Under the pieces are notes generated by a model. That model was not told the DNA's origin and ran no database searches. It saw nothing but the letters and a program-made list of their open reading frames with translations. Below, in pieces: positions 57,424 to 57,769 of a stretch of 64,000 nt of DNA (positions within the stretch are counted from its first letter, which is position 1; every line of letters starts with the position of its first letter). The stretch is taken from contig OZ024744.1 in NCBI GenBank assembly GCA_964016885.1, positions 78,988,001 through 79,052,000 on the forward strand. Direction: 5' to 3'. Position numbers and translations under genes: made by a program. Source of the stretch: Eledone cirrhosa. Taxonomy: Eukaryota.

Positions 57424-57681
57424 TAAAATTAATTAAACAATTTTAATAGTTTATTATACTTGAATTTTTTTCAACATGCTCACGCATATTTGTGTATGTG
57501 TGTTCATGTGTGTATGTGTAGTGTATGTGTATGTGCATATCTAAGGCGGGTAAACCCGCCTTAGATATGCACATACACATACACTACACATACACACATG
57601 AACACACATACACAAATATGCGTGAGCATGTTGAAAAAAATTCAAGTATAATAAACTATTAAAATTGTTTAATTAATTTTA
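57424..57681. repeat. perfect palindrome with 128-bp arms and 2-nt loop
   Basis: 57424-57551 is the exact reverse complement of 57554-57681. Confidence 0.95.
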
Positions 57682-57769
57682 ATTTATATGTATGAGTATA
57701 TAAATATAAACGCGCAAATACAGACACACTTACAAAAATACGCACTCACAGACAGACATTTACACAAAC

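What the first reader, a model, noticed from the sequence alone, without database searches (positions are those of the whole stretch)
57424..57682. Perfect palindrome whose tip is the last 17 nt of an RTE: a frozen abortive retrotransposition with fold-back
Seen: the centre tatctaaggcgggtaaa (57538-57554) is identical to the 3' terminus of the RTE at 51642-51658. A paralogous empty site exists at 53217-53330 (gtgtatgtgcatat-gcatcacg-tttatatgtatgag...). There 8 nt occupy the place of the 142-nt insert 57541-57682. Inference: target-primed RT began at an ATAT microhomology with the (AGAT) tail and stopped after ~14 new nt. The end then hairpinned and copied back through the tip and ~115 nt of flanking DNA before rejoining. 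This would be a LINE-triggered route to de novo palindromes.
Basis: partly seen in the sequence, partly recalled or inferred. Interest (0 to 1): 0.75.

Follow-up and report, generated by a model that had tools for sequence, protein, structure and literature searches.

The report
LINE stub folded back into palindrome
A perfect 258-base DNA palindrome carries the last 17 letters of a young jumping gene at its tip, likely because an insertion stopped almost at once, folded back and copied the neighbouring DNA; it is a very rare accident of a kind already described for other such elements.

Summary
The palindrome is real: two identical 128-nt arms (57424-57551, 57554-57681) around a 2-nt loop. Its tip holds the last 17 nt of a young RTE-like LINE with about 6,300 3' ends in this genome. 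The right junction is present in k-mer contigs of 2 of 3 runs of one sample, so a one-read chimera is unlikely; the tip itself was not checked in reads. The site lies near the end of a high-copy Helitron-like repeat, whose commonest form implies 6 nt lost, not 8. Most likely, target-primed reverse transcription stopped after 14-21 new nt, the cDNA end folded back, 127 nt were copied (117 of target) and the end was joined to the far side. This matches R2 'snap-back' junctions and yeast local foldback insertions, and is the primer-side counterpart of L1 foldback inversions. It is not a common route to palindromes: 1 tight hairpin among 6,298 RTE ends, 0 of 87 sampled copies with an inverted flank, 1 weaker case among 6,984 CR1-like ends. 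A neat natural example, modest interest.

The parts
57424..57551 (+). Left arm (original DNA): 35 nt unique AT-rich flank, 3' end region of a Helitron-like repeat, then RTE-derived bases
   Evidence: 128/128 complementary; paralogues share 57459-57540 but not the flank
57538..57554 (-). Last 17 nt of an RTE-like LINE (last codons, stop codon, first tail bases), in cDNA orientation on the + strand; 57541-57554 are the 14 bases not explained by the host
57537..57540 (+). ATAT shared between host and the element's (ATAG)n/(TA)n tail; inferred primer-template overlap
   Evidence: sequence
57552..57553 (.). 2-nt loop; relative to the element's own CGGG-TAAAATT-CCCG stem-loop, three loop bases (ATT) are missing
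57554..57681 (+). Right arm: inverted copy of the left arm (inferred copy-back, 127 new nt from 57555, of which 117 are target DNA)
   Evidence: unique in the genome
57681..57682 (.). Rejoining junction to the host repeat: no clear microhomology, 6 host nt lost, no target-site duplication
   Evidence: junction unitig 57652-57708 in X1 and X2
57459..64000 (-). Host: non-autonomous Helitron-like repeat with an expanded internal minisatellite; runs about 510 nt past the window end
51642..53090 (-). Unrelated 5'-truncated copy of the same RTE-like family (5 differences from the family majority in the first 300 nt); not necessarily the source
53203..53500 (-).

Best explanation
This is a perfect 128-bp-arm palindrome with the 3' tip of a young RTE-like LINE at its centre, likely left by one aborted insertion whose short cDNA folded back on itself. 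Inferred steps: (1) the host + strand was cut at GCATAT and its 3' end paired with the RNA tail through ATAT; (2) reverse transcription added only 14 nt (stop at element nt 17) or 21 nt (stop at nt 24, where the element's own CGGG/CCCG stem puts the 3' end in priming position; three loop bases then lost); (3) the second strand was broken and resected or displaced, so that the cDNA end primed copying back through itself and 117 nt of target; (4) the new end was joined bluntly to the other side of the break with loss of 6 nt; (5) the opposite strand was filled in through the hairpin. Shown: the palindrome, the identity and orientation of the tip, the empty-site comparison, the junction in short k-mer contigs, the rarity. 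It has no likely function; it is a repair scar.
For: Both arms contain the LINE bases, so the inversion is not older than the cDNA. The LINE piece starts exactly at the element's 3' end in TPRT orientation, with ATAT overlap to the tail type seen in sampled copies. Stubs this short are normal for the family: 24 of 28 hits of the first stub search are 14-19-nt stubs, 15 independent sites, 5 of them ending at nt 17; 3 of 100 sampled copies are 30 nt or shorter. The copy-back crosses the host repeat's end into 35 nt of unique flank and mirrors this copy's private variants, so it was templated locally. It rejoins within 6 nt of the priming point, which argues for one event. Junction unitig 57652-57708, 0 mismatches, depth 5 in X1 and 7.8 in X2; arm unitig depth 11.9 in X1, about twice the junction. 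The same architecture (foldback, synthesis, displacement, end-joining, inserts of 10 to over 150 bp) is described at yeast breaks (PMC11724301, section 15 read) and as 'snap-back' for R2 cDNA ends (PMC11371274, passages). A second LINE family gives one similar hairpin: L210, 83-nt perfect arms, 12-nt loop.
Against: A cDNA ending at nt 17 offers 1 bp of pairing and a 2-nt loop (-0.2 kcal/mol); the nt-24 variant needs an extra 3-nt loss, and no locus in the genome shows that stem snapped back with its loop intact, although stubs ending at nt 24 exist. The 7 other places with the next base C are ordinary longer copies with a substitution, so no subfamily explains the tip. The target is not a long (TA)n tract like most sampled sites, there is no tail repeat and no target-site duplication, so cutting by the element's own endonuclease is not shown. 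No true empty allele was seen. The junction unitig has 30 and 27 nt on the two sides, under the tool's 31-nt bridging mark, is absent from X3, and X1-X3 are one sample, perhaps the assembled one. L210 does not reach unique flank and could be twin priming.
Confidence: 0.65

Rival explanations
1. Endonuclease-independent capture: a break made by something else was extended on RTE RNA or a cDNA fragment, then repaired by the same foldback and end-joining. The LINE is a passenger, not the trigger.
For: No tail repeat, no target-site duplication, 6-nt loss, target with only ATAT. Yeast breaks give such foldback inserts with no LINE (PMC11724301).
Against: The piece starts exactly at the RNA 3' end with tail overlap, as in TPRT; the ordinary copy at 51642 also has no long tail or (TA)n target.
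Confidence: 0.11
2. Two steps: a normal 17-24-nt stub inserted first; a later unrelated break at the stub folded back on the CGGG/CCCG stem and was end-joined.
For: Such stubs are common; the stem is a ready foldback site.
Against: The second break must fall within about 20 nt of the stub; none of 58 loci from the two stub searches shows a foldback; identical arms and a young family (mean 1.4% from majority, 27 copies) leave little time.
Confidence: 0.1
3. Replication/fusion: the cDNA-extended end was replicated, the two sister ends fused head to head, and the product broke again 117 nt into the flank and captured the original far end.
For: Explains a 2-nt spacer without hairpin priming; proposed for L1-containing foldback junctions (bioRxiv 10.1101/2024.12.14.628481, passages).
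Against: Needs a second break very close to the fusion and recapture of the partner end within 6 nt; the cited foldbacks are large rearrangements, while here the host repeat continues normally on the right.
Confidence: 0.09
4. Sequencing or assembly fold-back chimera.
Against: A chimera would not add 14 LINE bases at the turn nor return to the host repeat 6 nt from the turn; the junction k-mers stand at depth 5 and 7.8 in two runs.
Confidence: 0.04

Closest known systems
R2 'snap-back' 5' junctions in PRINT insertions (Zhang et al. 2024, PMC11371274; passages read)
   Same: [quoted passage not shown]
   Different: There: engineered R2 proteins at rDNA in human cells, often after long or full-length cDNA. 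Here: a natural RTE-like insertion in a genome assembly, 14-21 nt of cDNA, copy-back running through the whole cDNA and 117 nt of primer-side flank.
L1 short foldback inversions (Nam et al. 2023, PMC10191854, passages) and L1 inverted duplications (bioRxiv 10.1101/2024.12.14.628481, passages)
   Same: Inverted duplication of target DNA of similar size (52-220 bp in Nam et al.; 3 cases, 0.3%, plus 1 with an internal inversion), small hairpin with little homology.
   Different: Those lie on the upstream or reciprocal end and keep poly(A) and the target-site duplication; here the fold is on the cDNA-bearing end, the element is inside both arms, and 6 nt are lost.
Local foldback inverted insertions at yeast double-strand breaks (Yu et al. 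2024, PMC11724301; abstract and section 15 read); Al-Zain et al. 2023 (PMC10622511; abstract and outline only)
   Same: Foldback priming, synthesis, displacement, then end-joining with 0-5 bp microhomology; inserts of 10 to over 150 bp.
   Different: Primed by a 10-bp imperfect inverted repeat with a 41-nt loop in genomic DNA; no retroelement involved.
Twin priming of L1 (as described in PMC2912911, PMC4245944, PMC12016303; passages read)
   Same: Gives inverted element sequence at the 5' junction; frequent in this very RTE-like family (29 of 100 sampled ends).
   Different: Does not duplicate host flank; cannot alone explain the 117 nt of mirrored target.

Membership tests
RTE-clade LINE (source of the tip) | One long ORF with apurinic-type endonuclease and reverse transcriptase | tested here: met
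   L172:2863-6030, 1,056 aa open frame; Pfam Exo_endo_phos_2 (2.2e-06) and RVT_1 (4.8e-32)
RTE-clade LINE (source of the tip) | Very short 3' UTR ending in short tandem repeats (feature recalled, paper not read) | tested here: met
   Stop codon lies inside the last 17 nt; (ATAG)n or (TA)n follows
RTE-clade LINE (source of the tip) | RT phylogeny places it in the RTE clade | not tested
   No tree built; the label RTE-like rests on the two rows above
RTE-clade LINE (source of the tip) | No separate ORF1 (recalled) | tested here: inconclusive
   A 267-codon stop-free frame lies upstream in L172; not characterised
Snap-back junction (R2/PRINT definition) | RNA-templated cDNA starting at the template 3' end | tested here: met
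Snap-back junction (R2/PRINT definition) | Sequence next to the cDNA end maps to the opposite strand of cDNA or nearby target | tested here: met
   127-nt reverse-complement match starting at the cDNA end; 599 of 600 mismatched controls gave none
Snap-back junction (R2/PRINT definition) | Antisense stretch then joined to the other target end | tested here: met
Snap-back junction (R2/PRINT definition) | Self-pairing of the cDNA end that can prime | tested here: inconclusive
   1 bp if the end was nt 17; 4-bp GC stem if nt 24, with a 3-nt loop loss needed
R2 element insertion | R2 protein, 28S rDNA site | tested here: not met
   Apurinic-type endonuclease LINE, target in a dispersed repeat; works like a snap-back, is not R2
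L1 short foldback inversion (Nam 2023) | Inverted duplication of 52-220 bp of target DNA | tested here: met
   117 nt of target
L1 short foldback inversion (Nam 2023) | Located on the upstream (non-primer) side, with tail and target-site duplication kept | tested here: not met
   Primer side; no tail repeat; 6-nt loss
Twin-primed 5' inversion | Inverted piece is element sequence primed from the second target end; host flanks not duplicated | tested here: not met
   Inverted piece is mostly host DNA from the primer side
Non-autonomous Helitron (host repeat) | 5' TC, 3' CTAG, inserted between A and T (recalled; search listing only) | tested here: met
   Paralogue 53203-53500, minus strand; the host copy has CAAG in place of CTAG
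Non-autonomous Helitron (host repeat) | GC-rich subterminal hairpin; autonomous RepHel partner | not tested
   Only a short stem is visible by eye in paralogues

The most novel reading that the evidence does not exclude
Ultra-short cDNAs of several LINE clades snap back in the animal germ line and copy host flank, making heritable perfect palindromes de novo at about 1 per several thousand insertions; most are then erased or eroded, so LINE-rich genomes hold a hidden class of palindromes with LINE 3' ends at their tips, and the element's own 3'-terminal stem-loop is the primer.
Probability: 0.2. Interest if true: 0.55.

Novelty: new member of a known kind. Interest (0 to 1): 0.32.

Why it matters
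It shows in a natural genome, at single-base resolution, an intermediate so far described mainly in engineered R2 insertions and in human somatic L1 events: a cDNA-extended end that is free, single-stranded for over 100 nt and repaired by host-type foldback and end-joining. Perfect palindromes of this size are fragile and, if transcribed, form long double-stranded RNA. But it is one event among thousands of insertions, with no sign of function, so it illustrates a mechanism and does not change the picture of how palindromes arise.

Tried and rejected
Other RTE-tipped hairpins: exact 10-mer arms with 0-30 nt gap, only this locus; 9-mer arms with 0-12 nt gap, only this locus, control also 1; 14-mer arms with 0-300 nt gap, 2 loci, neither with inverted unique flank: L062 is an 18-nt stub joined head to head to a 311-nt copy, L063 is a head-to-head pair of a SINE-like element sharing 30 nt with the LINE, arms differing by 4 substitutions and indels. 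Gaps above 300 nt were not searched genome-wide; only the 100-copy sample covers them. Sibling family with CTATGG end, 0-200 nt gap: 0 hits; its copy number was not counted. Sample of the first 100 listed places (all on contig C1, not random; at least three pairs are duplicates or two ends of one insertion): 13 ran off the fetched DNA, 87 were scored, 1 was flagged (L148) and rejected because its arms are diverged copies (94% over 82 nt) of a common repeat that also borders L114 and L135. L153 looked like a 5-nt snap-back but joins the head of another LINE-like sequence (read by eye). Stub searches: 28 of 28 hits and 30 of 56 hits examined; none has a foldback; L209's 17-nt match is a duplicated self-palindromic word. 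Foldbacks that copy only (TA)n would be invisible to these tests. L031 as a large-loop snap-back: rejected, its two arms share 0 of 6 and 9 private variants. A subfamily with C after the 17-mer: rejected. An unusually stable RNA structure at the element's 3' end: z -0.03, none. No tRNA gene in the window. Literature searches for a natural germ-line LINE-tipped palindrome and for twin priming in RTE elements listed none; subscription papers such as Ichiyanagi and Okada 2008 and Kojima and Okada 2009 are not held, and no supplements were read, so the junction lists of the R2 and L1 papers may hold the same structure.

Full report
Observation. The stretch 57424-57681 is a perfect palindrome: 128-nt arms, 2-nt loop; nothing else in the window outside (TA)n exceeds 24-nt perfect arms. 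The window lies on contig C28 of a 3.0-Gb assembly; earlier AI notes call the animal a probable octopus, which I did not test. The bases 57538-57554 equal 51642-51658, the 3' end of a LINE fragment. The 17-mer occurs 6,298 times against 0 for the backwards control, and 100 of 100 sampled places continue as the same element for at least 18 nt. A long copy (L172) has a 1,056-aa frame with endonuclease and reverse transcriptase domains whose stop codon lies inside that 17-mer, followed directly by the tail. The family is young: mean 1.4% from the majority base over the last 300 nt in 27 copies. I call it RTE-like; no tree was built. A SINE-like element shares the last 30 nt (L063), but with this exact 17-mer it is rare, so the LINE is the likelier source.

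Target. The site lies about 80 nt inside the end of a high-copy dispersed repeat (1,208 candidates) with Helitron-like ends in a short paralogue (5' TC, 3' CTAG, between A and T). In 12 of 23 paralogues the junction reads GCATAT-GCATAC-ATTTATATG, so 141 nt replace 6 nt, with no target-site duplication and no clear microhomology at the right junction. The right arm mirrors this copy's own variants and 35 nt of unique flank beyond the repeat's end, and that flank matched nowhere else among the scored candidates: the copy was made on the spot.

Artefact test. Three runs of one sample hold 0.90, 0.90 and 0.79 of the sampled words. Laid on 57622-57725, X1 and X2 each give a 57-nt unitig across the right junction with no mismatch, depth 5 and 7.8; the arm unitig in X1 has depth 11.9; X3 lacks the junction and the RAD-seq run X4 does not cover it. 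The unitig has 30 and 27 nt on the two sides, below the tool's bridging mark, and the sample may be the assembled one. A chimera would not add LINE bases at the turn nor come back to the host 6 nt from it, so I put the artefact at 4%.

Mechanism. Shown: LINE bases in both arms, TPRT orientation, ATAT overlap with the tail, local template, rejoining within 6 nt. Inferred: the order of steps. Very short cDNAs are normal for this family: 24 of 28 hits of a stub search are 14-19-nt stubs at 15 independent sites, 5 ending at nt 17, the other 4 hits being copies with small indels; a second search gave 56 hits breaking off at nt 24-32, of which 30 were examined. The fold is the weak step. An end at nt 17 has no stable hairpin (-0.2 kcal/mol); an end at nt 24 closes the element's own CGGG/CCCG stem with the 3' base paired (-3.2 kcal/mol), but the product lacks three loop bases, which would have to be lost afterwards. 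I cannot choose between them (about even). After copying 127 nt the end was joined to the far side. Rivals: capture at a break not made by the element (11%), two separate events (10%), sister-end fusion and rebreak (9%).

How general. Genome-wide exact-arm searches found only this locus for gaps up to 30 nt and two head-to-head pairs without inverted flank for gaps up to 300 nt; larger gaps were covered only by the sample. Of 100 sampled ends, 87 could be scored and none has a true inverted copy of its flank (L148 flagged and rejected); none of 58 stub-search loci has one. A sibling family gave 0. A CR1-like family (label by eye) with 6,984 ends gave one hairpin, L210: 83-nt perfect arms, 12-nt loop, reaching only 8 nt into the tail. 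Its near-equal arms suggest snap-back, but the arms match the family majority, so twin priming is not excluded. Tight LINE-tipped hairpins thus survive at roughly 1 per 6,000-7,000 ends here; perfect palindromes may be lost over time and exact-match searches miss eroded ones, so the birth rate may be higher.

Known kinds. R2 snap-back junctions: the cDNA 3' end primes synthesis on cDNA or nearby target before joining (PMC11371274, passages). L1 short foldback inversions of 52-220 bp in 0.3% of somatic insertions, on the upstream side (PMC10191854, passages), and inverted duplications from small hairpins on the reciprocal end (bioRxiv 10.1101/2024.12.14.628481, passages). Local foldback plus end-joining at yeast breaks (PMC11724301, abstract and section 15). 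The structure works like the first and third, and fails the side and target-duplication features of the second. My searches listed no natural germ-line case with an RTE element, but supplements were not read and many journals are not held.

Side result. 29 of the 100 sampled ends carry an inverted piece of the element at the 5' junction, with outer ends recurring near positions 246-250, 276-277, 296, 306-308 and 836-838 from the 3' end, next to AT-rich words that match the (TA)n target (three of the 29 are head-to-head doubles, and two pairs are the same or duplicated insertions). That is an L1-like rate of twin priming (18-22% in PMC12016303, passages) in a non-L1 element; PMC4245944 (passages) found such inversions almost only with L1 in human cells. 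Earlier notes of this scan touch on it. It also shows that both ends of the break are often free early in this family, which fits the mechanism above.

Verdict. Observation confirmed with small corrections; single-event foldback likely (65%); general route not supported; new member of a known kind; interest 0.32.

Noticed in passing
L031-L060, L100-L169 (G000:C1, first 97 Mb): 29 of 100 sampled 3' ends of the RTE-like family have an inverted element piece at the 5' junction, with recurrent internal priming spots; an L1-like twin-priming rate in a non-L1 clade.
   Followed up: partly
L031:1501-2672; L142/L143; L062:1498-1825: Head-to-head doubles with a 3' tail at both ends (907+269, 632+29, 311+18 nt); in L031 the arms share no private variant, so two RNAs were likely primed from the two sides of one break.
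   Followed up: partly
L210:1493-1670 (G000:C14): CR1-like 3' end folded into a hairpin with 83-nt perfect arms and a 12-nt loop; snap-back or twin priming.
   Followed up: partly
L063:1498-1803 and 505-612; L210:1680-1880: Short SINE-like element that shares the last 30 nt with the RTE-like LINE and often occurs in palindromic pairs; in L063 the pair turns on a 1-nt loop near its 5' end.
   Followed up: partly
L090-L097 (G000:C24, about 4.114 Mb): Tandem array of about 61-nt units, each holding a 15-17-nt RTE stub plus flank: a minisatellite born at an insertion junction.
   Followed up: no
window 58770-63255: About 4.5-kb LINE with a (TTA)n-type tail and a duplicated 3' end (CR1-like by eye), inserted in the minisatellite of the same Helitron-like host.
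   Followed up: partly
window 20140-20376: Older sibling RTE-like fragment on the + strand with a one-base variant 3' end and an intact (AGAT)n tail.
   Followed up: partly
window 30571-30625, 44378-44430, 15647-15694: Three small perfect hairpins (arms 24, 24, 19 nt; loops 7, 5, 10 nt); the second resembles part of the common repeat seen beside L135 and L148, so small foldbacks may also occur in other repeats.
   Followed up: no
window 26000-33000: Very AT-rich (11-24% GC) long microsatellite blocks in inverted orientation at 27696-28822 and 31535-32675.
   Followed up: no
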